Part shown: positions 4,041 to 20,419 of the stretch, one piece after another
Numbering within the stretch: the stretch's first letter is position 1
Layout of the letters: every line of letters begins with the position of its first letter
NCBI GenBank assembly: GCA_963796685.1
Contig: CAWCMR010000006.1
Coordinates: forward strand, 32,001-96,000
Length of the DNA stretch: 64,000 bases
Reading direction: 5' to 3'
Origin: an uncultured delta proteobacterium
GTDB lineage: Bacteria; Myxococcota_A; Polyangia; Fen-1088
The notes under the pieces: model-generated
What the model saw: only the letters and a program-made list of their open reading frames with translations
What the model was told of the DNA's origin: nothing
Databases searched by the model: none
Program-made: the position numbers and the translations under genes

Positions 4041-4044
4041 CCGA

Positions 4045-6021: not shown

Positions 6022-6089
6022 GAAATCGTTTCGGTACCGGGGGAGGGACTCGAACCCTCAAGTCCGTAAGGACGGTGGATTTTGAATCC
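6022..6089. repeat. att site (left): duplicated 3' part of tRNA-Leu
   Basis: 68-bp direct repeat of 20324-20391 with one mismatch (6033 g vs 20335 a). Confidence 0.95.
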
Positions 6090-6344
6090 CTCTTTGACTG
6101 TATCGCCATGTCGCTCAAACACGCAAACACCTACAAAACAAGGGGTCTCCATTGTGGCACCTGTTGTGGCTTGAGTCATGAAAATGCACCAAATCGGTGA
6201 GATAAGCCACCGACTGGCAACAGACTGAAGTAGACTATTCCCGTGGGCAGCCGAGGGCCTAATTACCCCTTGGTGGCCGCCGAGCCTGCATCCTAAGCGG
6301 CCCGCCCACGGTTCCTTTCGATCGGATGCAAAGGATGCAGAACC

Positions 6345-7145
6345 GTGACCCAGCCAACCCGACCGAAGGCCCGCCAAGCGAAGCGCCCTCGCGCTGGCGG
6401 CCCGAAGGCGCCCAAGGTGGCACCGGAGGCCCCGCAAGGCGTGGCGGCCCGGCAGAGGCCCGGCGCGCGACATTCCATAGTCCAGCCCGAAGCTACCGAG
6501 ACCGGGTACAGCAAGGCCGACTTTCTGCGCGATTTCGGCCACGATGCCGACTATCACGCCAAGTGTGATCGCGCCACGGCTGGACTGCGGGCACTGGCCG
6601 CGGGCAACCCACCGGCCGGCCGCAAAGATTGTGGGTGGTGGTGGTGCGAGAAAGACGACCTGTCTTCGCGTGAGCTGGCCTCCCTGCGAGGCGCATTGAA
6701 TACCCTACGCCAAGCCGGCGTGGACCCCAGCGGCCCGTGGGTTCGGAAGTACGGGAACCTCTACCGAATGCATGGAGCGCTACCGGATATCAAGGTGAGC
6801 GCCAGGGAGCAGGTATCCCGCGACATCGCGGCCCTTGAGAAAGTGCAGGAGTTGCTCGGCGGGTTGAGCAGGCACAATATTCCGACGAGCACGAACCGTG
6901 ATCTCGCGAATGAGCTCGACCGAGCCAAGGGCAGTACAGCGGCGGGGCCAGCCAACCCAACGAGGCGCGGACCCCCGGTTGACGGCGGCACCAGATGCGT
7001 GCTTCTAAATTACCGCGGGGACCGCCACTGGCCTCCCAACGTGATCGAAGCTTGCCTGATTCTCACCGGCGCACGTCGTGGGAGCGCCCGCGAATCGCGA
7101 GTCTTGAGCGAAATCGCCAAGAAGGCTCGGACAGCGGCGAAATAG
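6345..7145 (+). CDS. hypothetical protein (266 aa)
   Basis: Long ORF at the start of the element, same strand as all element genes; no motif recognised. Confidence 0.6.
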   Translation: MTQPTRPKARQAKRPRAGGPKAPKVAPEAPQGVAARQRPGARHSIVQPEATETGYSKADFLRDFGHDADYHAKCDRATAGLRALAAGNPPAGRKDCGWWWCEKDDLSSRELASLRGALNTLRQAGVDPSGPWVRKYGNLYRMHGALPDIKVSAREQVSRDIAALEKVQELLGGLSRHNIPTSTNRDLANELDRAKGSTAAGPANPTRRGPPVDGGTRCVLLNYRGDRHWPPNVIEACLILTGARRGSARESRVLSEIAKKARTAAK

Positions 7146-7238
7146 CGGCGACAAGCTGCACCTGCACTTAATTGCGCCGTGCGTGGTGTGATTAGGTGCA
7201 TCGCCATGGGCGTGGGGATGGCTCATCGTCGCTCTACC

Positions 7239-7442
7239 ATGACGACGCAGACGAGGCTAGACCACGAGACGCGCGAGGCACTGCGCCGATACCTCGCCGA
7301 CCGACATTGGCGGCCCGCTATCCGCAGCATCGGGGTGACCGAGTCGGTCCTGCGACGGGCTATTTCGGGGCGTCTCATCCGAGGCGCCAGCGCGACCGCG
7401 ATCCGCATCGCCCTACTCGCGCAGCCGGAGCCCCGCCCATGA
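7239..7442 (+). CDS. small HTH-like protein
   Basis: AIRSIGVTESVLRRAISG is HTH-like; ATGA-coupled to the next gene. Confidence 0.6.
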   Translation: MTTQTRLDHETREALRRYLADRHWRPAIRSIGVTESVLRRAISGRLIRGASATAIRIALLAQPEPRP

Positions 7443-7735
7443 CCGGCGCCGACCTGGCCACGGCCGCCGACGTCGAGCGCGTGCTTGCGCGCCAGGATGC
7501 CCTCGAGGCGAAGCTGGATCGCGTGCTGGCCGCGCTGCCCACGTCGTGGCTCTCGCTCACCGCCGCCGCCGAGCGCATGGGCGTGGACCCGAGGACGATC
7601 ACCGCCGCCATCTCGCGCGGGGAAGTAGTTGGGCGCCGGGTGGGACGACGGTGGGTAGTCGACGCGAACTCTATCCGCCCCGCGAGCGCGGCGGCGGTGG
7701 CGGCGATGGCGAGAGGGGCGAGGGCGGGACGATGA
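7439..7735 (+). CDS. excisionase-like HTH_17 DNA-binding protein
   Basis: WLSLTAAAERMGVDPRTITAAISRGEVVGRRVGRRWVV. Confidence 0.8.
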   Translation: MTGADLATAADVERVLARQDALEAKLDRVLAALPTSWLSLTAAAERMGVDPRTITAAISRGEVVGRRVGRRWVVDANSIRPASAAAVAAMARGARAGR

Positions 7736-9711
7736 CCGCACCCTTCGCCACTATCCCGTTTGTCGATCCCGTCGATAGCTTCCGCGACGCCATGGCGGCC
7801 GATGGACTCACTCCACCGCGCGAGATAGTTGTCGACCGAAAGATCCACCGCTGCGATGCCGACCGCAAGGGCGGCAAACGTGACGCCTGGTATGTCTTCT
7901 TCTCCGACGGAGTGCCGGCTGGCGCCTATGGGGATTGGGCAGAGGGCGAGACGCACAACTGGTGCGCGCGGCCCGAGAACAGCCTCACGCCCCAGGAGCG
8001 AGCGGCGTTTCGCACGCGCATGGACGCTGCCCGGCGAGCACGCGATGAGGAGATGCAGACGCAATACGCAGCCTCGGCAGCGTTGGCCGCTTCCACGTGG
8101 GGGCAAGCTACACAAGTCTTCGAGCCCTGCCCTGACTACCTCGATTGCAAAGGGGTGAAGTCGCACGGGCTGCGCGTGACCACGCGCGACTACGATTTCC
8201 CCTGCATCGACGGCAAACACACCATGCACGTGGCCACTGGCGCTCTTGTGGTGCCAGTCAGGACGGCCGATGGGAAGTTGACCAGCCTGCAATTCATCGA
8301 CGCCGAGGGGAAGCGATTCTTGCCGGGCGGGCGCATGCGTGGGTGCTTCTACTCAATCGGCGACATCGAGGGAGCGAAGCGGATCGGCCTCGCCGAAGGC
8401 TACACCACCGCCTCGACCATTCACGAGGCTACCGACCTGCCCGTGATTGTGGCCTTCTTCGCCGGCAACCTAGAACCCGTCGCCGAGTCGCTCCGCGCGA
8501 AATACCCGCGGACACAGTTTGTCTTCGGCGCGGACGACGATCATCTGCGCGAGAACAACCCCGGTGTCACGAAGGCGACCGAGGCGGCGAAGAAGTTTGG
8601 CGGGATCGTCGCGATCCCGGACTTCGGCACCGAGCGGGGCGAGAAAGACACGGACTGGAACGATCTGTCCAAGGCCCAAGGGCAAGGAGTCGTCAAGGAT
8701 CAATTCGAGAAGGCAATCGCGGCAACGGTTCCCCCGCTTGCGTCGGCCGTTGCGATTGAACTGTGGTCCAAGCCACTGCCCTCACCGATCCTGACACCGT
8801 TCTCGCCCTTGAATGACCTACTTGGTGGCGGTCTTCGTGGCGTGAACGTCTTGGCCGGCCCGACGGGCCGCGGGAAATCCGGCCTGGCTCTACATGTCGC
8901 ACGTGTTACGGCGCGGACGTTGCCCGTCTGCTACTTCTCCACCGAATTGAGCGACCGCCAAGCGCTCGCACGCATCGCCGCCCAAGAGCTGGGCCGGCCC
9001 TGGCGCCCACTGTACGAGGGCAGCGCACCAACCGGGATCGTTGTCGCCCACGCGATGGAACCCCTCAAATTGCGCGTGGTCGTGATTCGTTCGGTGACCG
9101 AACTACTCGACGCCCTGCGAGGGATTGAGGAATTCGAGGGGCAACCACCTTTTGTCGTGCTGGACTACTTGCAGGGCCTGGCCCGCAACCCCGACGAAGA
9201 TCGCCGGCTTGCCGTGGGGGCAGTCTCGGACGGGATCACCACATGGAGCCGCACCACGGGGGGAGTGGTGCTCGCCGTGTCGAGCATCGCCCGCGCGAGC
9301 TATTTCAACACCGACACCAAGGGCGCCGCCGACTTCGTGAACGCGGCGAAGGAATCGGGCGACATCGAATTCGACGCTTCATCGGTGCTGTTCTTGGATG
9401 TGGCGGCCCCACCCTTGGGCGGGAAGTCTGAAGGCCGCTTGCACGTGAGCAAGTCTCGATTCGGCACCGTGGGCACCGTGGGAGTCATCTTCGATGGCCC
9501 GACCGGAACCTTCGAGGAAGACGCCGAGGGCGGACTGTCCATTGACCAGCGCGCGGTTCTGGACGCCATCAACGAGGGCGCCAAGACCCAAGACGAGATC
9601 GCCAAGGCGGCCGGCGTCCGTAAGGCGAAGGTTGGGCCGGCCCTCCGAGCGCTCCAAGACCGCGGGCTTATCGGCAGCCGACCACGCCAAGACGAGGAGG
9701 GCCAGCCATGA
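7732..9711 (+). CDS. Toprim primase fused to DnaB-like (SF4) helicase and C-terminal HTH
   Basis: AEGYTTA, GADDD, DWND Toprim motifs; GPTGRGKS Walker A, LDYLQ, KESGDIEFDAS, KSRFG. Confidence 0.88.
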   Translation: MTAPFATIPFVDPVDSFRDAMAADGLTPPREIVVDRKIHRCDADRKGGKRDAWYVFFSDGVPAGAYGDWAEGETHNWCARPENSLTPQERAAFRTRMDAARRARDEEMQTQYAASAALAASTWGQATQVFEPCPDYLDCKGVKSHGLRVTTRDYDFPCIDGKHTMHVATGALVVPVRTADGKLTSLQFIDAEGKRFLPGGRMRGCFYSIGDIEGAKRIGLAEGYTTASTIHEATDLPVIVAFFAGNLEPVAESLRAKYPRTQFVFGADDDHLRENNPGVTKATEAAKKFGGIVAIPDFGTERGEKDTDWNDLSKAQGQGVVKDQFEKAIAATVPPLASAVAIELWSKPLPSPILTPFSPLNDLLGGGLRGVNVLAGPTGRGKSGLALHVARVTARTLPVCYFSTELSDRQALARIAAQELGRPWRPLYEGSAPTGIVVAHAMEPLKLRVVVIRSVTELLDALRGIEEFEGQPPFVVLDYLQGLARNPDEDRRLAVGAVSDGITTWSRTTGGVVLAVSSIARASYFNTDTKGAADFVNAAKESGDIEFDASSVLFLDVAAPPLGGKSEGRLHVSKSRFGTVGTVGVIFDGPTGTFEEDAEGGLSIDQRAVLDAINEGAKTQDEIAKAAGVRKAKVGPALRALQDRGLIGSRPRQDEEGQP

Positions 9712-9744
9712 AGCGTCAGACCGCCCAAGTCGAGTTTTTTTCCC

Positions 9745-9965
9745 TACCAGTTCCGGGCAAGACCTTAGTTCCCAGACGCACCAAGACGCCTTGTTTTGTG
9801 GGGGCGCATGATGCGTCAGAAAATGCCCTCGGGAACCGTTCCCGTTTGGTTCCCGGACGCTCCAAGACAAATGATTCTCCGACGGAGAGTGATAGTTCCC
9901 ACCCCGGAACTACCCTACGGGGGGGACGTTAGTTCCCACCCCCGTAGGGGGTAACTGGGAACTGC
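9745..9965. other. putative replication origin (GTTCCC/GGGAAC iterons)
   Basis: Cluster of GTTCCC in both orientations plus the CCCTACGGGGG/CCCCCGTAGGG inverted repeat directly after the primase-helicase. Confidence 0.5.
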
Positions 9966-10419
9966 GGGCCGAAAACGGATCTGAAACCGGCCTACCAGGA
10001 CTCACTACGAACACCACCACGGCCAGGCCCCTGGCGCCTCTCGGCTGGGGCTACGACTGGCGCATGCAGCTTGTAGACCTTCGCGGGTTGCGACCTGGTG
10101 AAGATGGCAGGCCGCCGATCTTCGTTTCGCCCAAGCCGGATGGGCTGCAATGACCGATTGCCAAAATGGCACGACCTGGAATCGGCATCGTCAGGCAACG
10201 GATGGCCAGTGTCGAGCCGAGCTCACCGACGGAAAACGCGGCGGCGGGACGGTGGAGTTGGCATCCGAGCACGCCCACGATTCACGATTTCCGACACGGC
10301 CCATCCTTCGGGCTGCTCCTTTCTTGTCCGGCGCTTCTGGCGCTCGAGCGCGGTCGCGATCCCGCGTTCTGTTGGACCGGCCGTGTCGGGAACTTTTCAA
10401 CGAACGAAAGGACCTGACC

Positions 10420-10638
10420 ATGGCCGACATAATGCCTTGCGATATTTGTTCCCTTCCCCTCGACGACGGTTCCCATTTTTCGATGGGCCGCACCTGGTGC
10501 TCGAAGTGTTGGCGTGGTGCGCAAGGGCCGGCAACGCCGCAGCCGGTATCGGAGGCCGGGAAGGCGGCGATTGCGGCCTGGCTGCGACCACGCCCACGTG
10601 GACAACTGGCGCTTCCCTTGCGTGGAGCCAGGTCATGA
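10420..10638 (+). CDS. small CxxC-CxxC zinc-finger protein
   Basis: GAAAGGA RBS; CDIC...CSKC. Confidence 0.6.
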   Translation: MADIMPCDICSLPLDDGSHFSMGRTWCSKCWRGAQGPATPQPVSEAGKAAIAAWLRPRPRGQLALPLRGARS

Positions 10639-10976
10639 GCGCGCCCACCACCACGAGGCCGAGCTTGCGCAAGGCCATCAACGGTATGTGCCGGGAGTGC
10701 ATCTACGACTCTTCGCCCGGCAACGGAACATGGCGCGAGCAAACCGAGGGCTGTACATCCCCGAAGTGCCCCCTCTACCCGCTTCGACCACTCACGACCG
10801 CGGGAACTGAGGCCAGGGCGCGACTATGGGCCGAACAGGGCCAGGACGGGCCAATAGCTCTCAAAGAAGGGGCCTTGGACACGGCCGAGGCACGGGGAGG
10901 CCAAGAAGCGGCCAACGCGGTGTGCGCGCCGTCAGGAAGCGCGATTCTGGACGCTGGGAGCGATGCCCATGGGTAA
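10635..10976 (+). CDS. phage-type Cys-rich hypothetical protein
   Basis: SLRKAINGMCRECIYD...GTWREQTEGCTSPKCPLYPLRP; ATGA-coupled. Confidence 0.7.
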   Translation: MSAPTTTRPSLRKAINGMCRECIYDSSPGNGTWREQTEGCTSPKCPLYPLRPLTTAGTEARARLWAEQGQDGPIALKEGALDTAEARGGQEAANAVCAPSGSAILDAGSDAHG

Positions 10977-11479
10977 GCGTAAGCCACCCGAACCGCCCGC
11001 GGTGCCGGTCTTGTCGGTGGTGCCGCCGGCGCCGTCGGAGGGAGCGGCACCAGATCGCCAGGTATCGCCCGACGCTGAGGAACCGATGAACGCCCGTGAG
11101 CTGGCGTTCATCGAGGCGCGATCTGAGGGCAAGACGATAAAGGCCAGCGCCGCGGCGGCGCGCCCTCCGTATCCCTACTCCACCGCGCGGGTTTTGGACG
11201 ACCGACAAGACATTCGAGCGGCCATTCGCAAACGCGCGAGGGAGGCCGTCTCATGCGGTGTTCATACTCTGGCGCAGTCTTCATCGGTAGCGGCCAAGGC
11301 ATTGGTGGACGTTGCGGAAAATGGAGCAAGCGGCGATGGGCCTCGAGTGAGCACCGCGAGAGCCTGCCTAGAGCTCTCGAATCCAGTCCTTGAAGATTGA
11401 CGACTTTCTCGAACGACTCGAGGCGCTCGAACGCCAGGGACAACAGCCGGGCAAGCCCGGTTTCCAACGTAGGAGCTGA
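10969..11479 (+). CDS. terminase-small-subunit-like HTH protein (apparent +1 frameshift at ~11380)
   Basis: NARELAFIEARSEGKTIKASAAAA; RVSTARACLE; removing one A restores ...SLKIDDFLERLEALE...* ending just before the next ATG. Confidence 0.6.
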
Positions 11480-11483
11480 GACC

Positions 11484-11729
11484 ATGGACATCCAATCATT
11501 GAAGGCCAGACTCGACCGCTTGCTCGAAACCCAGGGGCCGCCCGTCGGACCACCCGAGTGCATTGTGCTTTTGTCTGGCAAGGACGGGCACGGGCCCGCC
11601 GCGGATGAGGGCTTGCCACTCCCGCGGGTTGCATGGAGGAACTCGAAGGCGGCGTGCATCTTGTACGACCCCTCGGTGGGCCAGCCCAGCGCCGCGGAGA
11701 TCCGCCGGCTAATTGAGGGCGCTTCGTGA
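11484..11729 (+). CDS. hypothetical protein (starts MDIQSLKARLDRL)
   Basis: AGGAG RBS; coupled to the next ORF. Confidence 0.7.
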   Translation: MDIQSLKARLDRLLETQGPPVGPPECIVLLSGKDGHGPAADEGLPLPRVAWRNSKAACILYDPSVGQPSAAEIRRLIEGAS

Positions 11730-11941
11730 ACCTCGCGAGCTTGAAGGCCCGCCTGGCCTCCCTTGCACGCGCAACCGCGGCCCATGACCTGCCTGTCAAC
11801 TGGCCCGACCCGATCGGCGATTGGGTGCGTTCTCAGATAGCCGATGGCGCAGCACCGAGAACCGCGACAACACCAGAAGCGCGAGCCGAAGCCGAGGCGA
11901 GGTTGAGCACGTGGCTCGCGCGAGGAGCGGTGACGCCATGA
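11726..11941 (+). CDS. hypothetical protein (starts MNLASLKARLASL)
   Basis: GTGA overlap; N-terminus resembles its neighbours. Confidence 0.7.
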   Translation: MNLASLKARLASLARATAAHDLPVNWPDPIGDWVRSQIADGAAPRTATTPEARAEAEARLSTWLARGAVTP

Positions 11942-12189
11942 TCAACCTTTCGAGCCTTCGGGGCCAAATAGAAAGGCTTAGAATATTGGCCGAATCCGAG
12001 AGCCCGCGGCGAAAACCCACGACGAGCGAAATCCGCAACGAGCTCGAGCGCGTGCTCGCCGAGATCGAGAGTCGGCCGGCCGACGCTCCACCACACCCCG
12101 ATGTCACAGGGCTGCGCGAGGCGCAGCAGGAGCTCGCCCGCGTCCTAGTCGTCCTCAACAGGCTGTACCCACAGGAGGCGTCGGCATGA
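11938..12189 (+). CDS. hypothetical helical protein (starts MINLSSLRGQIERL)
   Basis: GAGGAG RBS, ATGA overlap. Confidence 0.7.
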   Translation: MINLSSLRGQIERLRILAESESPRRKPTTSEIRNELERVLAEIESRPADAPPHPDVTGLREAQQELARVLVVLNRLYPQEASA

Positions 12190-12638
12190 CCGCGCAAACG
12201 TCCCTGCCCGGCTGCGCGGTGGCGCCGGGGGAGAACCGCGCGACGCTCGAGCAAGACCTTCGCGGCCAGGTTGCGATCTGCCTCATGGCACTTTTCTGTT
12301 GGGTTGAACACCACGGCGGCCGGACGGTGTTGATCGACGGCACAGTGGAAAGGTTCATTGCTGCCAGCGGGACCTGTGACCCGCAAATCAGTCGAGCCAT
12401 CCGAAACACAAGAAGCGTGCTGGCGCGCTACCTCGCCAGCGGTGCGGCCGTTCCCTCGTGGCTGCCGCCGAGCATTCTTGAGCTGCTGCAAGAGCCCTGG
12501 TGTGCGCGCGACCTGGCGCCCTCGTCGGAGACCTCATCCAACGATCTACCCAACCGTTCACCGACGCTGGCCCCTCAGTCCAACATCGCCCCTGTGGCGG
12601 TTCTGAACCGAATGCAACCGAAACCTGAAAGGACATGA
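12186..12638 (+). CDS. hypothetical protein (150 aa)
   Basis: AGGAGG RBS, ATGA overlaps at both ends. Confidence 0.65.
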   Translation: MTAQTSLPGCAVAPGENRATLEQDLRGQVAICLMALFCWVEHHGGRTVLIDGTVERFIAASGTCDPQISRAIRNTRSVLARYLASGAAVPSWLPPSILELLQEPWCARDLAPSSETSSNDLPNRSPTLAPQSNIAPVAVLNRMQPKPERT

Positions 12639-12964
12639 CCATGAACACGCAACGAAGAATCTTCACCCGAGACATCATCGAGAAGCCCTTCACCGTTGGC
12701 GACGAGCTGACCTCGCGAGATACCGCAAAGGCGTCTCGCCGGGCTGCCGCGACCGCCGCCGGCGAGGCACGTGGCCGCGCAAGCGCGCTTGCGGAATTGG
12801 GCCAGGACAGCGCCGCACCTGCCGACGAAAGCCTCGACGGCATTTCCGCCGACCGCAAGCAGGGCACGCCCGAAACCTTCGGCAAGCCCGTCAAGCCCGT
12901 GGAGTCGTTCAACGGCGAGCGCCCGCCCGAGCCCGAAGTGCAACGGCCCGATCTCGTCTGGTAA
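12635..12964 (+). CDS. hypothetical protein (109 aa)
   Basis: GAAAGGA RBS, coupled to the upstream ORF. Confidence 0.65.
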   Translation: MTMNTQRRIFTRDIIEKPFTVGDELTSRDTAKASRRAAATAAGEARGRASALAELGQDSAAPADESLDGISADRKQGTPETFGKPVKPVESFNGERPPEPEVQRPDLVW

Positions 12965-12998
12965 TTGCCACAACAGCCAATTGAAAGGAACCTTCCCC

Positions 12999-13886
12999 AT
13001 GCCCGAAACTCTGAAAGACCTACTCACTAAACCGCTCAAAGACGGCGCCAAGCGTTTTCTCGTCGACGAGGCCATCATGAAAGCCGCCACTCCCGCCGGC
13101 CGGTGGAGGTTGTGCACTGACGCCGAGATTGCGGAAGCCTTGCCCGCGCTCGCCAAACTGATCGGCAAAGAGTCGAAGCTGCCTTCTTGGCAGCGGCGCC
13201 TTGGCGTATTGCTGGACAAGCCCGGCGAGTGGGTTCTCTCAATAGAGGCACTCGGCCCGAGCTGGGTGGAGTGGCTTCCGCATTATCCTACGGCGGCAAT
13301 AACCATTGCGGTGCCGCTCGCAGTTGGGGTTTCGATCTTGATGTCCCCGAACTCGCCCGAGGTGGAATTCAAACGCCGCCGGGACTTGCACGAGGCGTAC
13401 AGGAACGCCGAATCCGAGAAGGCGCGCATCGCCGCCGCGAAGAGGGATGCCGAAATTGCGGAGACACAGCGCAAGGATAACGAGCGCCAGCAATTTCGAG
13501 CCGCCGCATGGGAGCAATTGAGCGCGCTGGAGCGCTGCGCGGCCCGACTGGCCCTGCTTGTTGGCGAGCGTGACCCACAATTGGCAACGGACATCCGAGC
13601 CGCAATTGCCGGTGCTGGCGATACGAAGAACTTCCCCCGAACCGTTTGGTGGAAGAACATGGAGGGAGCCACGGGCCTGCAAGCTGCTGCCGCCAAAGAA
13701 GAGCAACAGGCGACCTTTGCGCGCCGCCAAAGGGCCGAGGGCATTCTCTCTCACATCCCGGCGAAAACTCGCTGGATTTTGGAAGTTCAGCACGGCCAAG
13801 ACAACGTCGAGGCGCAGCTCGCAGCGTGGGAACAACTGCAGGCCCAGCAAGCAAAGGCCGATAAGCAGAACGGGAGGGCCGCCTGA
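12999..13886 (+). CDS. hypothetical protein with C-terminal coiled coil (295 aa)
   Basis: GAAAGGA RBS; TGATG overlap with the baseplate-like gene start. Confidence 0.7.
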   Translation: MPETLKDLLTKPLKDGAKRFLVDEAIMKAATPAGRWRLCTDAEIAEALPALAKLIGKESKLPSWQRRLGVLLDKPGEWVLSIEALGPSWVEWLPHYPTAAITIAVPLAVGVSILMSPNSPEVEFKRRRDLHEAYRNAESEKARIAAAKRDAEIAETQRKDNERQQFRAAAWEQLSALERCAARLALLVGERDPQLATDIRAAIAGAGDTKNFPRTVWWKNMEGATGLQAAAAKEEQQATFARRQRAEGILSHIPAKTRWILEVQHGQDNVEAQLAAWEQLQAQQAKADKQNGRAA

Positions 13887-13898
13887 TGAGCCTTTTCG

Positions 13899-15309
13899 GG
13901 CTCTCCTGACATCTTCATGGAAGCGCGGGCACCTTGAAGACGGGATGAAGGACAACGCCTGAGCAGCAGAGGAAGATGAAGCCAATGAGGGCTTGAGCGT
14001 TGTGGAAGCCATAGGCCCTGCGGGTGATGACCCTGATCTTGCCATTAAGGCCCTCGGTTCTTCCGTTATTGAGCCCTGTGGCGACAATGGCCACGATGCC
14101 GTCCAGGTATTTCTTGATGGTCGCGGCGACCTTCTTGAAGGAAGGTAGTCTGGATCGCCTGGCCCAACTGATCCATTCTTCGAGCTTCTGTTTGACGACG
14201 TTGACCTGGCGACGACCGAGGATGTCGCAGATGGCGATCTTGAGCAGGTAGCCGCGATAGAGTCGGGCATTGGTCTTCGGGAGGGTCGACAGCCTCTCAG
14301 ACTCGGCCCTGGATAGGTTCCACGGATTCTTGAGCAGAAGGTACTTGGTCTTCTTCAGTTGCCCGCGTTCGTCGGTGTCCTCCAGGAGTCGGACCTCCGC
14401 ACGCCGGAGCTCGTCGAGTGCTTCCTGCACGAGTCTCTGAACGTGGAAGCGGTCGAAGACGATCTGCGCTTGTGGCGCTCGCGAGGTGACCGCGTCGATG
14501 TAGGCCGCGGACATGTCGATGGTGACGGTCTTGAGCTTGCTGGTTCGTTCCGGGCCGAGAGCGTCGAAGAAGCAGCCGAGCGTCGCAGCGTTCTTGCCCT
14601 CGTGGGCCCAGACGACCCGCTGCGAGACGTGGTCGACAACGACGGTGACGTACTCATGGTGCCGCCGGTACGACAACTCGTCGACGCCGATGTGTTCGAG
14701 GTCCTCGAGGAGAAGGCTAGGATCTCGGTGCCGCGGCACCACCCGCTGGATGATGGCGCCGACGGTGCGCCACGCGATGCGCATGGTTTCGGCCACCATC
14801 GTCTGGCTTGCTTGTTGGGCCAGATAGGCCACGTGGTCCTCGAAGTCACGCGTGAAGCCGACCTTCGGCTCGGCCCAAGGGACCATCTCGATGACCACGC
14901 CGCACCGAGGACAGTCAACCCTGCGCAGGGTGTAGCGCAGAAGAACCTCCATCCCGCACGCGTCCAGATGCCGCCAGTTCCGAGCCCGAGCATCGAACAC
15001 GTCATGGACCCGACATCCGCAGCCTGAGCAGTAGGGAACGGTCGTCGTTGGCGCCACGTGCACCAATATGCCAAGCAGATCGAATTCGACCGCCAGGACA
15101 CGGGTATGTGGAAATTGGAGTAGGTTTCGGAATAGGGTGGTTGCGCGCATGGGCTCCTGGGCTTGTGGGTTCTAGACAAGCCACACGATACCCCAGGTGC
15201 CCGTGCGCACTTCGTCTCCACCTCACCCGAAACTCATGCCGCCCACATCTCCGTCGGCGACGTGCGTCGCACCTACGAGATCTCCCCTTACGAAGATGTC
15301 AGGAGAGCC
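13899..15309 (-). mobile_element. ISL3-family insertion sequence (1411 bp)
   Basis: Perfect 18-bp terminal IR ggctctcctgacatcttc; 8-bp TSD ccttttcg at 13891-13898 and 15310-15317. Confidence 0.95.
13915..15150 (-). CDS. ISL3 transposase
   Basis: CSGCG/CPRCG Zn finger, IGVDE, TIDMS, DRFHV, NGRTEGLNGKI..RRAYGF. Confidence 0.95.
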   Translation of the reverse strand: MRATTLFRNLLQFPHTRVLAVEFDLLGILVHVAPTTTVPYCSGCGCRVHDVFDARARNWRHLDACGMEVLLRYTLRRVDCPRCGVVIEMVPWAEPKVGFTRDFEDHVAYLAQQASQTMVAETMRIAWRTVGAIIQRVVPRHRDPSLLLEDLEHIGVDELSYRRHHEYVTVVVDHVSQRVVWAHEGKNAATLGCFFDALGPERTSKLKTVTIDMSAAYIDAVTSRAPQAQIVFDRFHVQRLVQEALDELRRAEVRLLEDTDERGQLKKTKYLLLKNPWNLSRAESERLSTLPKTNARLYRGYLLKIAICDILGRRQVNVVKQKLEEWISWARRSRLPSFKKVAATIKKYLDGIVAIVATGLNNGRTEGLNGKIRVITRRAYGFHNAQALIGFIFLCCSGVVLHPVFKVPALP

Positions 15310-16302
15310 CCTTTTCGCACAACAAAAGACCGCCCAAGGCTTCACGCGCGTCTCACTGCCACAAATCATCGCCTCGCTCGAAGCCCTCTGGAAGGGCGCC
15401 TACGGGTCAAGCGTCGACCTGGACCCACGTTCGGCGGACGGCCAGATGATTGGCGGCATCGCCGAGATGATGGACGATCTCAACAGTGCCGTGGCCGACC
15501 TGATGCACGTCGCGAACCCGAATGGGGCCACGGGAGCATTCCTCACGAACATCGCCGCATTGACCAACGTCACCCGCAACAGTGACGAGAAGGACGCCAA
15601 CCTACGCATTCGTCGGCAACAGGCAACCGCCACTGCCTCACAGTCGATGAGCGACACGCTATTGGCGGCCTTGCTGGCACTTCCCGGCGTGCTCGACGCT
15701 TGCGTGCGCGAGAATGCGACGAGCGAGCCAGGTTTGATTGGCGGCCTTACGATCAACCCCAACACCGTGCGGGCCGTTGTCGAGGTGCAGCTCGGCGGCG
15801 CCGCGGACCCGGCTACCACGACGACGAGCACGGACCCGATCGCCAACACCATCTTCGCGCTCAAGAGCATGGGGTGCGGGACGCAGGGGGGAACAGGCAA
15901 GGGGCCGCTCGACGCCCTTGGCGTCTCGCATGACATCTACTATGACCTGGCCACGGCGCTGGACGTGCAAGTCGCAGTTACGATCTCAACCCGCACGAAC
16001 TGGCCAAGCGATGGAGGCGCCCAAATCGCGGCGTTGATTCTCGGGTGGGCGAACGGCACGGATCCAGTCACGGGCAAACCCAACTGCCCGATTTCGGGAA
16101 TCGAGCTCACGCCGGGCTCCGATCAGGGCGCCTTGAGCTGGACCGATGTGGTCGGGTCATTCCTTGGCCAGGTTCCTGGGTTCGACTTCGTGAGCCTGAC
16201 GTTCAGCTTGGACGGCGGCGCCACGTGGAGCACGAACGGACAAAACTTGGTCATTCCTTTCACCCGCTTTGCCTCGATCAGCAGCATCTCGGTGGTGGCC
16301 GA

Positions 16303-16497
16303 GTGAGCCTGCGTGCCGCGGTCCCGGCCAAGGGCATGCTCGCCCTACTCGAAGTCCGCAAGGAAGGGTTGCAGGCGATGATCCGCGAACGCTTCTGCGC
16401 TGCCCGCCTGGCCGGCACCGTGGCCGATGTGTCGGCACTGACCGCGACCTTGCGCGCGGTGAAGGCCTCGCTCAAGGCAGCCATGGGCAAGCGGTGA
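16303..16497 (+). CDS. small helical hypothetical protein
   Basis: GTGA overlap with the baseplate-like gene stop. Confidence 0.55.
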   Translation: MSLRAAVPAKGMLALLEVRKEGLQAMIRERFCAARLAGTVADVSALTATLRAVKASLKAAMGKR

Positions 16498-16545
16498 GAG
16501 GATGGCCAAACTTGACCCGAGACCGAACGGCGCGAGGATGCGGCC

Positions 16546-16857
16546 ATGTCGCACGCCGAGCAGGGCAAGGTATTCTCGCAAGTCATGCTCGGCGCTGCTT
16601 GCGCACTCGTTGCTACCGCTATCGGTTTTTGGGGTGCTGGCGCCGAATGGGGGAGCGTAAGAGTGATCGTGGCTCTTTCTCTTGCCGCAGGGACACTCAC
16701 CTTCGCTCTTGTGGGATTTCTGCAAACGCGGTTCGCAGAGGAAAAAGAGAAGCGCGAGATCGAAGCCAAGGCGGCGGTAGCGAAGGAAGCCGAGGCAGAG
16801 AAAGAGAAGGCCGCGAAGGCCAAGGCGGACGAGGACATTTTCAGCTACTACAAGTAG
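16546..16857 (+). CDS. small two-TM membrane protein with charged tail
   Basis: GAGGA RBS; two hydrophobic segments followed by an EEKEKRE coiled tail. Confidence 0.65.
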   Translation: MSHAEQGKVFSQVMLGAACALVATAIGFWGAGAEWGSVRVIVALSLAAGTLTFALVGFLQTRFAEEKEKREIEAKAAVAKEAEAEKEKAAKAKADEDIFSYYK

Positions 16858-17063
16858 CCGTCCGCGTTTCCACATCAGGCCGCGACACTTGCCACTTGCG
16901 CGGGTGGCACCGCGCTTCGGCGAGCCACACATCGAGGACGGGTAGCGGATGAGTAGTCCGATGCGCTACGGGCGGTTTCCCCGTCGGTGAAGGCCAGGCG
17001 AGGCGCGGGGCGCCGTGGCCAAAGTGCAGCCATTCGGGGCGGATTAGATGGGCGTGACGATTT

Positions 17064-17096
17064 GTTCTTGACATAGATAAGAACGCGGTTCTTAAT
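17064..17096 (+). promoter_or_regulatory. sigma70-like promoter with overlapping operator palindrome
   Basis: TTGACA at 17068, 17-bp spacer, CTTAAT; TAAGAAC-N3-GTTCTTA palindrome plus a third GTTCTT half-site. Confidence 0.55.
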
Positions 17097-17103
17097 TACG
17101 AGT

Positions 17104-17361
17104 ATGGAAATGGCTCAAAACTCGCACCGTTCTCAGAAATCGGCGAGACTCCCCGACGTGGGACGTCCCCGCGTTCGAGCACTCACCGAAACGATCAACA
17201 TCGGCTTCAAAGCCGAGCCCGATTTGGTGCGCGCTCTCGACGCCGAGGCAGCGCGACTCACGGCCGACCGTGGTCCCGGTGCTTCCAAGGTGAGTCGCAC
17301 CGAAGCAATCAAGGTCATCTTGGCCAAGTGGCTGGCTGACCAGTCCAAGCCCCGCCAGTAA
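17104..17361 (+). CDS. ribbon-helix-helix (CopG/Arc-like) regulator
   Basis: GRP, INIGFKAEPDLVRALD...SRTEAIKVIL. Confidence 0.7.
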   Translation: MEMAQNSHRSQKSARLPDVGRPRVRALTETINIGFKAEPDLVRALDAEAARLTADRGPGASKVSRTEAIKVILAKWLADQSKPRQ

Positions 17362-17461
17362 CCCGCGCGCCGTAGCCGCGCACGTACCCGCCCCACAAGA
17401 GAAAGGGCGCCACCTTTTGCCGAGGTGCGCCCGCGTTCGACCCTCCGTGAAAGGAATCGAC

Positions 17462-17845
17462 ATGTCCACCGTACCACGCCCGACGACGAAGACCAGCAAA
17501 CCACGAGAGAGAACCGCGACCCCGGCCGAGCTCGCCGAGGACACCCGCCGAAGCCGTGAGGCTCGCGAGGCACACCGAGTGCTGGCGCCCGCGCCCGCCG
17601 AGGGCAACCTGTGCGCGTGTCTGGTACTGCTTGCCCGCTTTCGGAAGTGCTCGGTTTGTGCTCGCCCGGTGCTGTACGTGAACGAACAGGCCAGGACCGA
17701 CGGCGACGTGGAGTGTCCCGCTTGCATCCAGGTTCGCACCGACCTGGCCAAGCGCCTTCGCTTCGTGAAGCTGGCCAGCCGTGTCCGCTCCCACCTGACC
17801 GACCTGTTCAGCACGGCCAACGACAACGCTTCGGTGGCATCATGA
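17462..17845 (+). CDS. Cys-rich hypothetical protein
   Basis: GAAAGGA RBS; CAC, CSVC, CPAC. Confidence 0.65.
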   Translation: MSTVPRPTTKTSKPRERTATPAELAEDTRRSREAREAHRVLAPAPAEGNLCACLVLLARFRKCSVCARPVLYVNEQARTDGDVECPACIQVRTDLAKRLRFVKLASRVRSHLTDLFSTANDNASVAS

Positions 17846-18066
17846 ACGCGAACGTCTCAAGCCTGCCCTTCGAGCTCGACCGAGCCAAGGCGGACACCGA
17901 GCGCTACCGCCGCGTCTTCTGCCAGGTGGCCCGGTGTGCCGACGTTGTCGTTCAGGCGGTGGCCGAGGGCGCTATCAGCCACAACGAAGCGTTGCAGGCC
18001 ATGCGCCGGCACGCCTGCACCCTGGTATCCGCCGTCGAGGCGCTGGCCGCGAGGGCGCGCTCATGA
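17842..18066 (+). CDS. hypothetical protein
   Basis: ATGA-coupled chain of ORFs. Confidence 0.6.
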   Translation: MNANVSSLPFELDRAKADTERYRRVFCQVARCADVVVQAVAEGAISHNEALQAMRRHACTLVSAVEALAARARS

Positions 18067-18167
18067 TCGCCGGCATGAAGCCTCTGGATCTGGCGGCCGG
18101 CATCGCGGCGATGGTCGTGATTCTCCTCGCTTGGTCGTGGGCGATGACGTGGAGCCGCGAGCCATGA
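18063..18167 (+). CDS. single-TM peptide (34 aa)
   Basis: ATGA overlaps on both sides; hydrophobic. Confidence 0.5.
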   Translation: MIAGMKPLDLAAGIAAMVVILLAWSWAMTWSREP

Positions 18168-18370
18168 GCCTGACGCAGCGCTGGCACGCCCCGGCCGCCA
18201 CGGTCAGGGTGGGCGGCGAATTCGACCGAGGCGGCAAGCGCGGCTTCGTCTCGCTGGCGTGCTCGCCCTCGACCTGCCTTCTCACCCGCGGCGCCGCGCG
18301 GGATGTGGCGCGCACGCTGATTCGATTCGCAGAAGGGGTGCGGCCGGCACCACGCAAGAAGCCCGCGTAG
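18164..18370 (+). CDS. hypothetical protein
   Basis: ATGA overlap. Confidence 0.55.
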   Translation: MSLTQRWHAPAATVRVGGEFDRGGKRGFVSLACSPSTCLLTRGAARDVARTLIRFAEGVRPAPRKKPA

Positions 18371-18473
18371 GTCACGCGCTGGTGACTCTCCCCGATGCCA
18401 CGGAGGGAGTCACGGGCGAGGAACCCGCCGAGCTGGCCGGACGCCAGCAACGAACCTTGACGAAAGGCACCCC

Positions 18474-19091
18474 ATGGAAACGAACGACACCACGATCACG
18501 CCCGAAACCCTGGCCACGCTCGCCACGACTGCCGCCGCGGTGGCGCTCGAGCACCAGGAATACACCGAGGCTCGAACCGCAGAGGCCGCAGCCGAGGCCG
18601 CGCTACTCGAGCGAATCGTCGAAACCGTCAAGCCGGCGCTGCGAGCCTTGGCCAGCGCCATCAAGTCGCGCGACTACTCGACGGGCGGGCGCAACGGCTG
18701 CAACCCGGTCCACACCTACGACACCTTCACCGAGCGCGGGGTTTGCTTGGTGGATGGCTACGACCACGACAAGGACGAAACCGGCAACCGTGGCAGCAAC
18801 GGCGGTTCCCGGCTGTACCTTCTCGATGATGGGAGGCTGGCGGAAGTCGCGCGCGAGGGCACGTGGTCATGCTGGCAGGGCGAGGCGGATACCTGGGAGG
18901 CCGAGTTGACCATCGTCACGCCAGCCGAGGCGGTGGCCCGGTACGAGCTCGCCAGCATCGTCGGGACCTTGAACGCCAAGCTGGAAGAGCAGGCCAAGGG
19001 CTCGAAGGCGAAGCGCACCAAAGCTGCCACGGCCCGCGCGGCGAAGCTGGCGGCGGTGGGCGCGCTCGTGGGGGTGGCCAATGGCGCGTAA
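18474..19091 (+). CDS. hypothetical protein (205 aa)
   Basis: GAAAGG RBS, strong codon bias, overlaps the integrase start. Confidence 0.75.
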   Translation: METNDTTITPETLATLATTAAAVALEHQEYTEARTAEAAAEAALLERIVETVKPALRALASAIKSRDYSTGGRNGCNPVHTYDTFTERGVCLVDGYDHDKDETGNRGSNGGSRLYLLDDGRLAEVAREGTWSCWQGEADTWEAELTIVTPAEAVARYELASIVGTLNAKLEEQAKGSKAKRTKAATARAAKLAAVGALVGVANGA

Positions 19092-20325
19092 GGCGAAGCG
19101 GCGGCGGCCCCGTGGGATGGGCACTCTCTGGCAGCGCGGGGACTGGTGGGTAGTCCAGTGGCGGGAAAAGGGGCGCCGCAAGCATGCGAAGTTCCCCGAC
19201 CGCGACACGGCCGAGAAGGTGCTCGCGAAGATCCTCTCGGACGTGGCACTCAACCGCCACGGCATCGAAACCGAGAAGGCGCCCTCGCCACTGCTGAGCG
19301 TGCTCGCCAAGCCTTGGTTGGCAACCCGCAAGTCCACGCATCGCAGTTGGGACGCGGACGCCGGGCGCTGGAAGCTGCACCTTGCCCCGAGGTTCGGCAA
19401 GCGGGAGCCCGACGAGGTAGACCAAGCGGCCATCCGGCTGGCCGTCGAAACCTGGTTGGCCGAGGGGTTGACGCCTTCCACGTGCATGCGGTGCGTGTGC
19501 TTGCTGTCTTCGCTCTACACCGACCTCTGCGAGCGCGGGCTGGCCAAGGCGAACCCGGCGAAGGGGCTACCGCGGGCGACCCGGCGCCTCTTGAAGTCGG
19601 CCCACGACCCGAAGACCACGCCCTTTGTGGAGAAGCTGGCGGACGTCCAGCGCATCTATCGCGCCTTGCCCGAACCTGTGAACACCGCCTATGCCGTCGG
19701 CGCCATGGCCGGCTTGCGGGTGGGGGAGCTTCTGGCCCTTCGGTGGGTGAACGTAGACCTCGAGCACCGGCGGCTTGTCGTGTCGGAGCAAGTCCAGGAC
19801 GGCAAGGTGTTCCGCCCGAAGGATCTGGACTCCCGCGTGGTCCCCATCCTGGACAGCCTCTTGCCGGTCCTGCAAGCCGCGAAGCTGGCAAGCGGTGGCG
19901 TCGGGCTGGTAGTGCCGCCCATGCGCAGCAACAAGACCCGCAAGCACCTTGGTCCCCACACGCTGGGGAAGTTCCTTCGGGAGGCCCTGGCCGAGCTAAA
20001 CAAGGATGGGGAGGCACTGCCGGCCGTGAACTGGTACCAGGCGACGCGCCACACCTTCGCCTCGCAGTGGGTCATGGCGGGCGGCAGCATCGAGAAGCTA
20101 CGCGAGGCGATGGGGCATTCCACGGTCCTGGTTACCGAGCGGTACGCGCATCTTCGAGGCGACGTGTTCAACGCGGTAGACCTGGGACGCATGGCGGTCG
20201 ACTTCTCGGCGCCCGCAGGCAAGGTGCTACCCCTGGTGCAGCCTGGTGCCGTAAGCCACCCACTGGCAACAGAGGCAGAATCGACCGAGGCGGAAGGGGT
20301 GGCGGAAGTGAGTGCAACCCTGTGA
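19081..20325 (+). CDS. int: tyrosine recombinase/integrase
   Basis: Arm-like N-terminus, GLRVGEL, RPKD, TRHTFAS, MGHS...TERYAH; ends at the att site. Confidence 0.95.
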   Translation: MARKAKRRRPRGMGTLWQRGDWWVVQWREKGRRKHAKFPDRDTAEKVLAKILSDVALNRHGIETEKAPSPLLSVLAKPWLATRKSTHRSWDADAGRWKLHLAPRFGKREPDEVDQAAIRLAVETWLAEGLTPSTCMRCVCLLSSLYTDLCERGLAKANPAKGLPRATRRLLKSAHDPKTTPFVEKLADVQRIYRALPEPVNTAYAVGAMAGLRVGELLALRWVNVDLEHRRLVVSEQVQDGKVFRPKDLDSRVVPILDSLLPVLQAAKLASGGVGLVVPPMRSNKTRKHLGPHTLGKFLREALAELNKDGEALPAVNWYQATRHTFASQWVMAGGSIEKLREAMGHSTVLVTERYAHLRGDVFNAVDLGRMAVDFSAPAGKVLPLVQPGAVSHPLATEAESTEAEGVAEVSATL

Positions 20326-20391
20326 AATCGTTTCAGTACCGGGGGAGGGACTCGAACCCTCAAGTCCGTAAGGACGGTGGATTTTGAATCC
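20324..20391. repeat. att site (right), overlapping the tRNA-Leu 3' half
   Basis: Direct repeat of 6022-6089. Confidence 0.95.
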
Positions 20392-20419
20392 ACTGCGTTT
20401 GCCATTCCGCCACTCCGGC
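20337..20419 (-). tRNA. tRNA-Leu (CAA)
   Basis: GCCGGAG...GTGGA-TT-CAA-AA-TCCAC anticodon arm, long variable arm, GAGGG-TTCGAGT-CCCTC T arm; CCA not encoded. Confidence 0.95.

What the first reader, a model, noticed from the sequence alone, without database searches (positions are those of the whole stretch)
13886..16306. Lone, minimised baseplate-J-like gene in a tail-less element: candidate tail-assembly decoy or hijack factor
Seen: the reconstructed 333-aa protein has baseplate-J-like N-terminal motifs (VDLDPRSADGQ, NPNGATGAFL..I) and C-terminal motifs (LPGV..ACVREN, IA..IF..K..G..T.G). However, 'TNVTR' joins directly to 'NSDEKDANLRIRR', where such wedge proteins normally carry a beta-rich insertion on the order of 100 residues. 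The junction is in frame and clean, and no sheath, tube, spike or fibre genes are nearby. The gene is translationally coupled on both sides (TGATG, GTGA) at the end of the TerS-like operon. Inference: the satellite makes a domain-deleted wedge subunit that poisons or re-specifies contractile-tail assembly of a helper phage. I know of no satellite using this strategy.
Basis: partly seen in the sequence, partly recalled or inferred. Interest (0 to 1): 0.8.

Follow-up and report, generated by a model that had tools for sequence, protein, structure and literature searches.

The report
Lone shortened baseplate gene, IS-interrupted
A small integrated mobile element carries a single phage tail-baseplate gene that has neatly lost one domain and was recently cut by a jumping gene, so it is probably a just-silenced hitch-hiker's tool rather than an active tail poison.

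Summary
Window 13886-16306 is one baseplate-wedge (J/gp47/gp6-like) gene split after codon 2 by a 1,411-bp ISL3-family insertion sequence. It lacks a ~95-residue beta-domain that all 23 full-length close homologues and 12 of 12 usable phage loci carry. It sits alone in a 14.3-kb tRNA-Leu element with integrase, excisionase and primase-helicase; no sheath or other baseplate-J gene was found in the 88.6%-complete genome.

The close homologues lie in complete contractile-tail operons. The deletion falls exactly at the insertion point that separates long forms from natural ~300-aa wedge proteins such as Pam3 gp22. The protein keeps 45 of 46 family-conserved positions. Against a syntenic same-genus element, dN/dS is 0.18-0.27. 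A soil-metagenome contig with 5 differences bridges the same junction. So the lone gene was functional cargo, not a neutral relic.

The IS copy is identical to one of the 13 other full copies, so the insertion is recent. It separates the gene from its ribosome-binding site, and the present copy is probably silent.

Poisoning or re-specifying helper tails is untested. Precedents exist (PLE chimeric tails, AH14b, Tai, Tab). Verdict: partly supported; new variant of a known kind; moderate interest.

The parts
6034..6089 (.). attL: 56-nt exact copy of the 3' part of tRNA-Leu; left end of the 14,302-bp element
   Evidence: family D2 (6007-6089 vs 20309-20391); the last 56 nt are identical by eye
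7439..7735 (+). excisionase / recombination directionality factor-like HTH gene
   Evidence: phrog_7506 3.1e-10 and phrog_1840 7.4e-08; Pfam HTH_17 1.6e-05, just under the cut-off
7546..9711 (+). primase-helicase (Toprim + DnaB-like); the true start is probably near 7729
   Evidence: phrog_2249 DNA primase 6.4e-77; Pfam DnaB_C 8.7e-19 and Toprim_3 1.1e-05
10963..11400 (+). 145-aa candidate small terminase subunit (a lead only)
   Evidence: No Pfam or PHROG hit. ESM Atlas nearest clusters are 'Terminase small subunit', score 0.94, 193 of 256 features, 17 of 30 hits in that set
12999..13886 (+). 295-aa upstream gene of unknown function; its stop overlaps the J start (TGATG); conserved with J in the G002 element
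   Evidence: same 295-aa protein on record; two homologues, 57% and 39% identical; dN/dS 0.29 against G002; no family hit
13872..13898 (+). orphaned 5' end of the J gene: ribosome-binding site GGGAGGG, ATG 13886, codon 2, and the left target duplication CCTTTTCG (13891-13898); the frame now stops at TGA 13907-13909 inside the IS
13899..15309 (-). ISL3-family insertion sequence, 1,411 bp; transposase 13915-15150 on the minus strand
   Evidence: 14 full copies at 99.5-100%; 11 of 14 with a perfect 8-bp duplication
15296..15298 (+). ATG inside the right IS repeat, in frame with the J body (would give MSGEP + body); no obvious ribosome-binding site
15310..15317 (.). right target-site duplication CCTTTTCG
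15311..16306 (+). body of the J-like baseplate wedge gene (331 codons + stop)
15578..15583 (+). junction codons (Asn-Ser) where the ~95-residue beta-domain is missing
   Evidence: bridged by a 156-nt soil-metagenome contig
16303..16497 (+). 64-aa downstream ORF whose GTG overlaps the J stop (GTGA)
   Evidence: dN/dS 0.55 against G002
19081..20325 (+). tyrosine integrase
   Evidence: Pfam Phage_integrase 2.5e-12; phrog_1 1.3e-39
20336..20419 (-). tRNA-Leu(CAA); its 3' 56 nt (20336-20391) form attR

Best explanation
The gene is a genuine baseplate-wedge subunit, the J / Mu gp47 / T4 gp6 'triplex' protein. It is carried alone as cargo of a ~12.9-kb (14.3 kb with the IS) tRNA-Leu integrative element that looks like a phage satellite.

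Shown:
- It descends from the ~420-430-aa J genes of complete myophage tail operons.
- In this lineage the ~95-residue beta-insertion domain was excised in frame, exactly at the natural insertion point. This left a minimal wedge architecture like Pam3 gp22.
- The lone gene and its neighbours evolved under purifying selection.
- An ISL3 element that is actively spreading in this genome then inserted after codon 2.

Inferred:
- The present copy is cut from its ribosome-binding site and operon and is probably silent, so it is a very young pseudogene.
- Before that, the product joined the wedge heterotriplex of a related helper myophage, giving chimeric or altered baseplates. This is more likely substitution or re-specification, as in PLE satellites, than pure poisoning.
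For: Family and fold:
- phrog_6 matches at 1.1e-19.
- The family profile matches 11 solved wedge chains at E <= 0.01, best 3.3e-38.
- Foldseek gives 30 matches at E <= 0.001; the top is Pam3 gp22, 7.3e-16.

Origin:
- 23 of 26 hits are 403-475 aa.
- 13 viral loci were found. All 12 that hold both halves have ~200-300 extra nt between them.
- The two loci annotated (L016, L010) have sheath, chaperone, tape measure, hub and J; L010 also has tail fibres and L016 a gp25-like wedge subunit and a spike-like N-domain.
- The tree of 40 rows nests the window inside the long-form clade (supports 97/98 and 100/99); natural short forms lie far away.

Precise excision:
- In the P0002 model the missing part is a beta-domain (strands 95-178) between helices 77-86 and 190-205.
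- In A7 the junction TRN|SDEKD lines up without residue loss with eight natural 296-322-aa forms.
- 11 of the best 150 of 1,707 hits are such one-stretch short forms.

Selection:
- dN/dS against the syntenic G002 copy is 0.18 (N part) and 0.27 (C part). The same alignments read in wrong frames give 1.35-6.3.
- Differences by codon position are 14/5/29 and 41/36/81.
- 45 of 46 conserved positions are kept.

Other evidence:
- A 156-nt contig of run X1 covers 15524-15679 with 5 other letters and no gap.
- The block is shared by two elements with different integrases (41.6% identity), att sites and replication genes.
- IS: 14 full copies, one 100% identical.
- Complex model of two window-J chains plus the L016 wedge partner: score 0.64, best of 3 controls 0.00. 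That mark was reached by 58 of 80 solved complexes and 2 of 110 mismatched pairs. Runs agree in at least 86% of contacts and partner pLDDT is at least 67. Like complexes are solved, so this shows likeness only.
- Precedent: PLE11 (PMC12987554, passages).
Against: - No helper myophage was found in this genome (88.6% complete) or in G002 (84%), which has only its own J-like match.
- Both full loci found are damaged. G002's J has five single-base indels, and its upstream gene is split over all three frames by several frameshifts. Its integrase (404 aa) and a 142-aa gene read through. This fits a block that is being lost.
- Satellite status is inferred from gene content only. The small-terminase call rests on one language-model lead.
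- The second sighting of the deletion is a single low-depth (3.8) 156-nt contig, possibly from a related population.
- Pfam Baseplate_J does not match the window protein.
- The region around the junction is modelled with low confidence (residues 68-111). The flanks are also weak in the full-length model.
- One conserved Trp is changed (W133R).
- There are no expression data.
Confidence: 0.55

Rival explanations
1. One reading: the element currently makes a domain-deleted wedge subunit that acts as a dominant-negative decoy, poisoning helper or invading myophage tail assembly. Functionally this would be a Tai/Tab-like defence.
For: - The short protein keeps the conserved residues and is modelled in a 2:1 triplex with a phage wedge partner (likeness only).
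- The deletion allele is seen twice.
- Tail-assembly interference by mobile elements is established (PMC11364771 abstract; PMC10884400 search listing).
Against: - The gene is separated from its start, ribosome-binding site and operon by 1.4 kb of IS carrying an antisense transposase gene.
- The short architecture is that of normal working wedges (PMC9942802 passages), so there is no reason to expect poisoning.
- A satellite that needs tails would harm itself.
- There is no PADLOC hit (0 of 10 proteins at a relevant score).
Confidence: 0.1
2. Relic: the J gene is a leftover of a degraded prophage tail module that is simply decaying. The deletion, the IS and the G002 frameshifts are all neutral damage.
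For: - Both full loci are damaged.
- No other tail gene or helper was found in either genome.
- Close relatives are rare: 1 of 60 relatives and no further close match in 400 genomes of the class.
Against: - dN/dS is 0.18-0.29 for J and its upstream neighbour, with third-position excess.
- 45 of 46 conserved positions are kept.
- The deletion coincides with a natural domain boundary on both sides, which is unlikely for an unselected deletion.
- The block is shared by two elements with perfect att repeats, intact integrases and different replication modules.
- No other element protein matches five related phage contigs, which are 41-72% complete.
Confidence: 0.2
3. Still active: the ATG in the right IS repeat (15296), in frame with the body, lets a slightly longer protein (MSGEP + body) be made from IS-derived or read-through transcription.
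For: The frame is open from 15197, and ATG 15296 is in frame.
Against: - No Shine-Dalgarno-like sequence precedes it.
- No sigma-70-like promoter was found in 10000-19200 (0 found; shuffles average 0.9).
- The transposase gene points the other way.
- An in-frame ATG is expected by chance about one time in three.
Confidence: 0.1

Closest known systems
Baseplate J-like wedge ('triplex') proteins of myophages with the central beta-domain (Pfam PF04865, phrog_6; solved examples Pseudomonas phages E217 gp44 and Pa193 gp45-a, phage XM1 gp16)
   Same: Same family by sequence profile and fold. The closest relatives are 51-64% identical and 403-475 aa.
   Different: Those genes sit in full tail operons beside a gp25-like protein, hub, spike and fibres. 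This one is alone, lacks the beta-domain, fails the Pfam model and is IS-interrupted.
Minimal wedge proteins: cyanophage Pam3 gp22 (299 aa, 7yfz) and the wedge chain of R2 pyocin (291 aa, 6u5b_m). That P2 gpJ is of similar size is recalled, not tested.
   Same: Same domain architecture: N-terminal helices plus C-terminal alpha/beta domains, with no insertion. Pam3 gp22 is the best structural match. [quoted passage not shown]
   Different: Only about 20-29% identical. They are ancestrally or independently short and work inside complete tails. The window protein became short secondarily, from inside the long-form clade.
PLE satellites of Vibrio cholerae phage ICP1 (PLE11 tape measure, chaperone and baseplate hub BhuB; chimeric tails)
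   Same: A small integrative satellite carries only part of a tail-assembly pathway, homologous to helper genes, and substitutes it into helper-built tails (PMC12987554, passages read).
   Different: Different genes (hub, tape measure and chaperone, not the wedge J). That case is shown by experiment. Here there is no helper, no experiment, and the copy is broken.
Pseudomonas sp. ANT_H14 satellite prophage AH14b
   Same: A 16.8-kb element with P4-like primase and helicase carries a lone homologue (71-74% identical) of its helper's tail assembly protein I (PMC4936722, passages read).
   Different: A lambda-type gpI assembly factor of a non-contractile tail, not a contractile-baseplate wedge subunit.
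Tai and Tab tail-assembly inhibitors
   Same: Mobile-element genes that block tail assembly of other phages.
   Different: No sequence relation was tested or found. The PADLOC 2023 library gave nothing, and I did not check whether it holds Tai or Tab models. From what I read they are not described as truncated structural proteins.

Membership tests
Baseplate J / gp47 / gp6-type wedge protein | Significant match to the family's sequence profile | tested here: met
   phrog_6 1.1e-19. Family profile against solved wedge proteins, best 3.3e-38. Pfam PF04865 itself is not matched at E <= 0.1, because that model spans the deleted domain.
Baseplate J / gp47 / gp6-type wedge protein | Wedge-protein fold | tested here: met
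   AlphaFold2 model, pLDDT 80.4. Foldseek top hits are all baseplate wedge chains: Pam3 7.3e-16, Pa193 4.6e-13, XM1 2.1e-12.
Baseplate J / gp47 / gp6-type wedge protein | Encoded in a baseplate or tail operon beside a gp25-like protein and the second wedge partner | tested here: not met
   Neighbours have no tail-family hits. None of 15 other L016 tail-region proteins matches anywhere in the genome.
Baseplate J / gp47 / gp6-type wedge protein | Forms a 2:1 heterotriplex with the partner wedge protein | tested here: inconclusive
   Model with the partner from phage locus L016 scores 0.64 against best control 0.00. Like complexes are solved, so this shows likeness, not binding.
Phage satellite (PICI / P4-like in the broad sense) | Integrase, att repeats and small size (about 10-15 kb) | tested here: met
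   Integrase. 56-nt repeats 14,302 bp apart at tRNA-Leu. 12,883 bp without the IS and one duplication copy.
Phage satellite (PICI / P4-like in the broad sense) | Own replication initiator (primase-helicase) and an excisionase/AlpA-type regulator | tested here: met
Phage satellite (PICI / P4-like in the broad sense) | No capsid, large terminase or complete tail genes of its own | tested here: met
   20 element reading frames were scanned with PHROGs (the 12771 and 12999 starts are one gene). Only J, primase-helicase, excisionase and integrase have clear hits, plus one weak 'primase' hit at E 0.0041. Unannotated small ORFs remain.
Phage satellite (PICI / P4-like in the broad sense) | Packaging-redirection gene, such as a small terminase | tested here: inconclusive
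   Only an ESM Atlas lead, 0.94 to Terminase_2 clusters; no Pfam or PHROG hit.
Phage satellite (PICI / P4-like in the broad sense) | Induction, packaging and transfer depend on a helper phage | not testable with these tools
   No helper found; needs experiment.
ISL3-family insertion sequence | DDE_Tnp_ISL3 transposase, terminal inverted repeats, 8-bp target duplication, several copies | tested here: met

The most novel reading that the evidence does not exclude
A family of small soil-bacterial satellites carries a single wedge subunit as its only virion gene and slips it into a helper myophage's baseplate triplex. In this lineage selection trimmed the subunit to the minimal core by excising its peripheral beta-domain. 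That would make baseplates with a changed periphery, either re-targeted or crippled for the helper. It would be a natural case of single-subunit baseplate remodelling by a hyperparasite.
Probability: 0.2. Interest if true: 0.7.

Novelty: new variant of a known kind. Interest (0 to 1): 0.45.

Why it matters
If lone wedge genes are working cargo of satellites, helper-tail hijacking by substitution of single baseplate subunits is not a peculiarity of Vibrio PLEs. It would extend to uncultured soil lineages and to the wedge, which carries the fibre-binding periphery and so bears on host range. The clean secondary loss of the beta-insertion, converging on the Pam3-type minimal wedge, is also a natural experiment. 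It suggests that this domain is a removable module of the triplex protein, which is useful for engineering tails and tailocins. Against this, the copy here is interrupted, the only other full locus is frameshifted, and nothing functional is shown.

Tried and rejected
Searches that found nothing:
- The search for related loci in genome contigs twice: no confirmed relative.
- Metagenome contigs with the single protein: none. With A6: 3 loci, one 49% identical on a 2.4-kb contig and two distant. These were not used further.
- Viral contigs with the upstream 295-aa protein and the 142-aa protein: none.
- The small-terminase-like and upstream proteins against five phage records, 41-72% complete: nothing rang, which shows little.
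- ESM Atlas for the upstream protein: no usable hit.
- PADLOC: no relevant hit.
- phrog_205 (sheath) on the own genome: uninformative, because its controls did not ring. I used Pfam PF04984 instead.
- Literature: 'satellites + baseplate wedge + integrase + primase' gave 0 papers. 'Baseplate_J + satellite' gave 1 irrelevant paper. So I found no report of a satellite-borne J gene in the held library. Supplements were closed and could hold such gene lists.

Sequencing runs: no RNA holder was listed. Runs X2 and X3 gave only short, partly fitting pieces on the IS and at 16383-16416. No contig covered the IS-gene joints, so I cannot tell whether IS-free alleles exist.

Considered and rejected:
- The deletion as an assembly artefact: rejected because an independent contig bridges it.
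- The window lineage as primitively short: rejected by the tree, by G002 and by P0011, which keep domain residues.
- Microhomology at the deletion ends: none convincing by eye.
- A link to the genome's T6SS: no evidence.
- G002 indels as assembly errors: cannot be excluded. However, the integrase and a 142-aa gene in the same element read through.

Only 2 of the 13 viral loci were annotated with PHROGs. ORF layouts of 9 loci were listed and look alike. In the tree I left out P0012, P0019, P0025, P0026 and most of the 150 representatives.


Full report
WHAT IS THERE. The span 13886-16306 is one gene in two pieces. The upstream ORF ends at TGA 13884-13886, overlapping ATG 13886 (TGATG), with GGGAGGG seven bases upstream. 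After ATG AGC the sequence enters an insertion sequence at 13899-15309. The IS has perfect terminal inverted repeats and an 8-bp direct duplication CCTTTTCG on both sides. Its 411-aa minus-strand transposase carries the Zn-ribbon, HTH and DDE domains of the ISL3 family (5e-71). The gene body runs from 15311 to TGA 16304-16306, which overlaps the GTG of a 64-aa ORF. I did not build that joined sequence; I used the natural body (331 aa) throughout.

THE IS IS YOUNG. The genome holds 14 full copies at 99.5-100% identity plus two partial copies at contig ends. One copy (C16) is identical to this one over 1,411 nt. Eleven of the 14 show a perfect 8-bp duplication, mostly A/T-rich. The orphaned start now reads seven codons and stops inside the IS. 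An ATG in the right repeat (15296) is in frame with the body, but I saw no ribosome-binding site or promoter-like site. So the present copy is most likely silent. That is an inference; there are no expression data (one search listed no RNA holder).

IT IS A BASEPLATE WEDGE PROTEIN. PHROG family 6 ('baseplate wedge subunit') matches at 1.1e-19. A profile of 28 family members matches 11 solved chains at E <= 0.01, all baseplate wedge or triplex proteins, best 3.3e-38; these include E217 gp44, Pa193 gp45-a, XM1 gp16, Pam3 gp22 and Mu gp47. The AlphaFold2 model (pLDDT 80.4, pTM 0.60) gives 30 Foldseek matches at E <= 0.001. The top match is Pam3 gp22 (299 aa, 7.3e-16) and the following ones are other phage, pyocin and injection-system baseplates. 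Pfam Baseplate_J does not match the window protein. It does match two long homologues over residues 79-350 and 98-363, which is across the part missing here.

THE MISSING DOMAIN IS REAL AND DERIVED.
- Of 26 hits in the 5.8-billion-protein search, 23 are 403-475 aa. The other three are the window's own protein, a 245-aa fragment (P0011) and a 312-aa frameshifted copy (P0019).
- Alignment A1 shows about 95 residues absent between 'TRN' and 'DEKDANLR'. The PHROG profile is unmatched at positions 148-235.
- In the model of the 420-aa homologue P0002 the missing part is a confidently modelled beta-domain (strands 95-178) inserted between helices 77-86 and 190-205.
- In the exhaustive search (1,707 hits at E <= 0.001) most of the best 150 are 380-510 aa and match in two stretches. 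Eleven are 296-324 aa and match in one stretch across the junction.
- Aligned with eight of these, the window's junction coincides with theirs to the residue, for example TRN|SDEKD against TRN|ADETD.
- A maximum-likelihood tree of 40 rows puts the window deep inside the long-form clade: sister to P0011 at 97/98, then a 5-row clade with P0002, P0003 and P0004 at 100/99. The natural short forms lie far off.
- The closest relative, in same-genus genome G002, has the domain.

So the short form arose by deletion and converged on the minimal architecture. The Pam3 paper describes that architecture as a working wedge 'lacking extra insertion domains': two gp22 and one gp23 per heterotriplex (PMC9942802, passages read).

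WHERE THE RELATIVES LIVE. Thirteen IMG/VR loci encode homologues at 46-63% identity. All 12 that hold both halves have the extra 200-300 nt. The two I annotated share tail sheath, assembly chaperone, tape measure, baseplate hub and J. L016 adds a gp25-like wedge subunit and a spike-like N-domain; L010 adds tail fibres. Nine loci have similar ORF layouts. No other protein of the window's element matches these loci or five whole phage records. Cultured phages are below 31% identical.

THE ELEMENT. A 56-nt exact repeat of the 3' end of tRNA-Leu(CAA) lies at 6034-6089 and 20336-20391, 14,302 bp apart. Inside, all on the + strand, are:
- an excisionase-like gene,
- a primase-helicase,
- a 145-aa protein that a language-model search places with small terminase subunits (0.94; a lead only),
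- several small unknown ORFs and a 295-aa unknown protein,
- J,
- more small ORFs,
- a tyrosine integrase.

None of the element proteins scanned has a capsid, large-terminase or other tail family. The genome (7.3 Mb, 26 contigs, 88.6% complete) has no other J (Pfam or PHROG), no phage sheath, and no match to 15 other tail-region proteins of L016. Its only gp25-type hit belongs to a type VI secretion locus. This gene content fits a phage satellite, but helper dependence is untested.

WAS THE LONE GENE FUNCTIONAL?
- One of 60 relatives searched, G002, holds a syntenic block: upstream gene, J, downstream ORFs. It lies in a 12.3-kb element bounded by 32-nt repeats. That element has a different integrase (41.6% identity) and a different replication module (DUF1376 plus an IstB-like ATPase). 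The block is therefore a shared module of mosaic elements.
- Between the two copies dS is about 0.6. dN/dS is 0.18 (J, N part), 0.27 (J, C part) and 0.29 (upstream gene). The same alignments read in the two wrong frames give 0.98-6.3. Differences pile up at third positions: 14/5/29 and 41/36/81.
- The window protein keeps 45 of 46 positions that are at least 90% conserved in the other 27 sequences, as good as bona fide phage proteins. The one change is W133R.
- A 156-nt contig from a soil-metagenome run lies on 15524-15679 with 5 differences and no gap. It bridges the junction with 57 and 99 letters on either side. So the deletion is not an assembly artefact and exists in a slightly diverged sequence.
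- A model of two window-J chains with the wedge partner of phage locus L016 scores 0.64 against a best control of 0.00. That mark was reached by 58 of 80 solved complexes and 2 of 110 mismatched pairs. The runs agree in at least 86% of contacts and partner pLDDT is at least 67. Similar triplexes are solved, so this shows only that the short protein still looks like a triplex former.

EVIDENCE THE OTHER WAY.
- G002's J has five single-base indels relative to the window, and its upstream gene is split over all three frames by several frameshifts, while its integrase reads through. So both complete loci known are damaged.
- G002 likewise has no second J.
- Close relatives were not found in 400 further genomes of the class. 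Four of those had only about 30%-identical, 400-500-aa open frames.
- The second sighting of the deletion is one low-depth contig.
- The junction region is modelled with low confidence, although the same flanks are weak in the full-length model.

READING. The best-supported account has three steps. First, a wedge gene was captured from a myophage tail operon by a satellite-like element and kept under selection. Second, it was secondarily trimmed to the minimal core at a natural domain boundary; an unselected deletion would rarely hit both boundaries in frame, so this argues that the short protein was still in use. Third, it was very recently knocked out by an IS that is sweeping this genome.

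The likeliest past function is entry into a helper's wedge heterotriplex. Substitution or re-specification seems more likely than poisoning, because the short architecture is that of normal wedges and a satellite needs tails. This mirrors PLE satellites, which replace the helper's tape measure, chaperone and baseplate hub to build chimeric tails (PMC12987554, passages). It also mirrors the Pseudomonas satellite AH14b, which carries a lone copy of its helper's tail assembly protein I (PMC4936722, passages). Interference of the Tai or Tab kind remains possible (PMC11364771 abstract; PMC10884400 listing). A plain relic is less likely but not excluded.

NOVELTY AND SCORE. I found no report of a satellite-borne J/wedge gene in the held library (supplements were closed). 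However, the principle of partial tail modules in satellites is now published. I rate this a new variant of a known kind and of moderate interest (0.45). The domain-excision convergence and the conserved lone-J block are interesting in their own right.

Noticed in passing
window 13899-15309; G000 contigs C2, C6, C8, C10, C14, C16, C25, C26: An ISL3-family IS is present in 14 full copies at 99.5-100% identity (plus two partial copies at contig ends). It has 8-bp, mostly A/T-rich target duplications. Two copies sit 9 bp apart on C2. This looks like an ongoing IS expansion in the genome.
   Followed up: yes
window 15296-15310: The right inverted repeat of the IS carries an ATG in frame with the interrupted gene, so a fusion start (MSGEP + body) is formally possible. 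No ribosome-binding site is evident.
   Followed up: partly
L035 (G002:C43:162000-179000), 2674-15039: A second 12.3-kb element is bounded by 32-nt perfect repeats and is not at a tRNA. It shares the upstream-gene/J/downstream block but has another integrase and a DUF1376 + IstB-like replication module. Its J and upstream gene carry many single-base indels, while other genes read through.
   Followed up: partly
window 6007-6032 and 6196-6224: Sequences on both sides of attL resemble the 3' end of the integrase gene (20309-20335 and 20245-20273, 77-86% identity). They are not collinear. They may be scars of an earlier tandem integration or recombination at this tRNA-Leu site.
   Followed up: no
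window 2856-3076: Eight tandem copies of a 21-nt unit (GATGCGGGCGAGCAGGGAATC-like) lie inside long overlapping ORFs on both strands. As a coding repeat this would be a 7-residue unit.
   Followed up: no
window 9712-10962: About 1.25 kb between the primase-helicase and the terminase-like gene has no ORF that I could assign. It might hold the element's origin or regulatory region.
   Followed up: no
G000:C15:54663-56923: A type VI secretion locus (TssF 4.8e-243 next to a GPW_gp25/TssE-type gene) is the only other baseplate-like machinery found in the genome.
   Followed up: partly
window 15524-15679 (run X1): A soil-metagenome contig of 156 nt with 5 differences carries the same domain-deletion junction, so the short allele occurs outside this assembly.
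   Followed up: partly
window 15707-15709 (residue 133 of the 331-aa body): This is the only departure from family-conserved residues: Trp to Arg in the 'VWEN' motif (ACVREN here).
   Followed up: no
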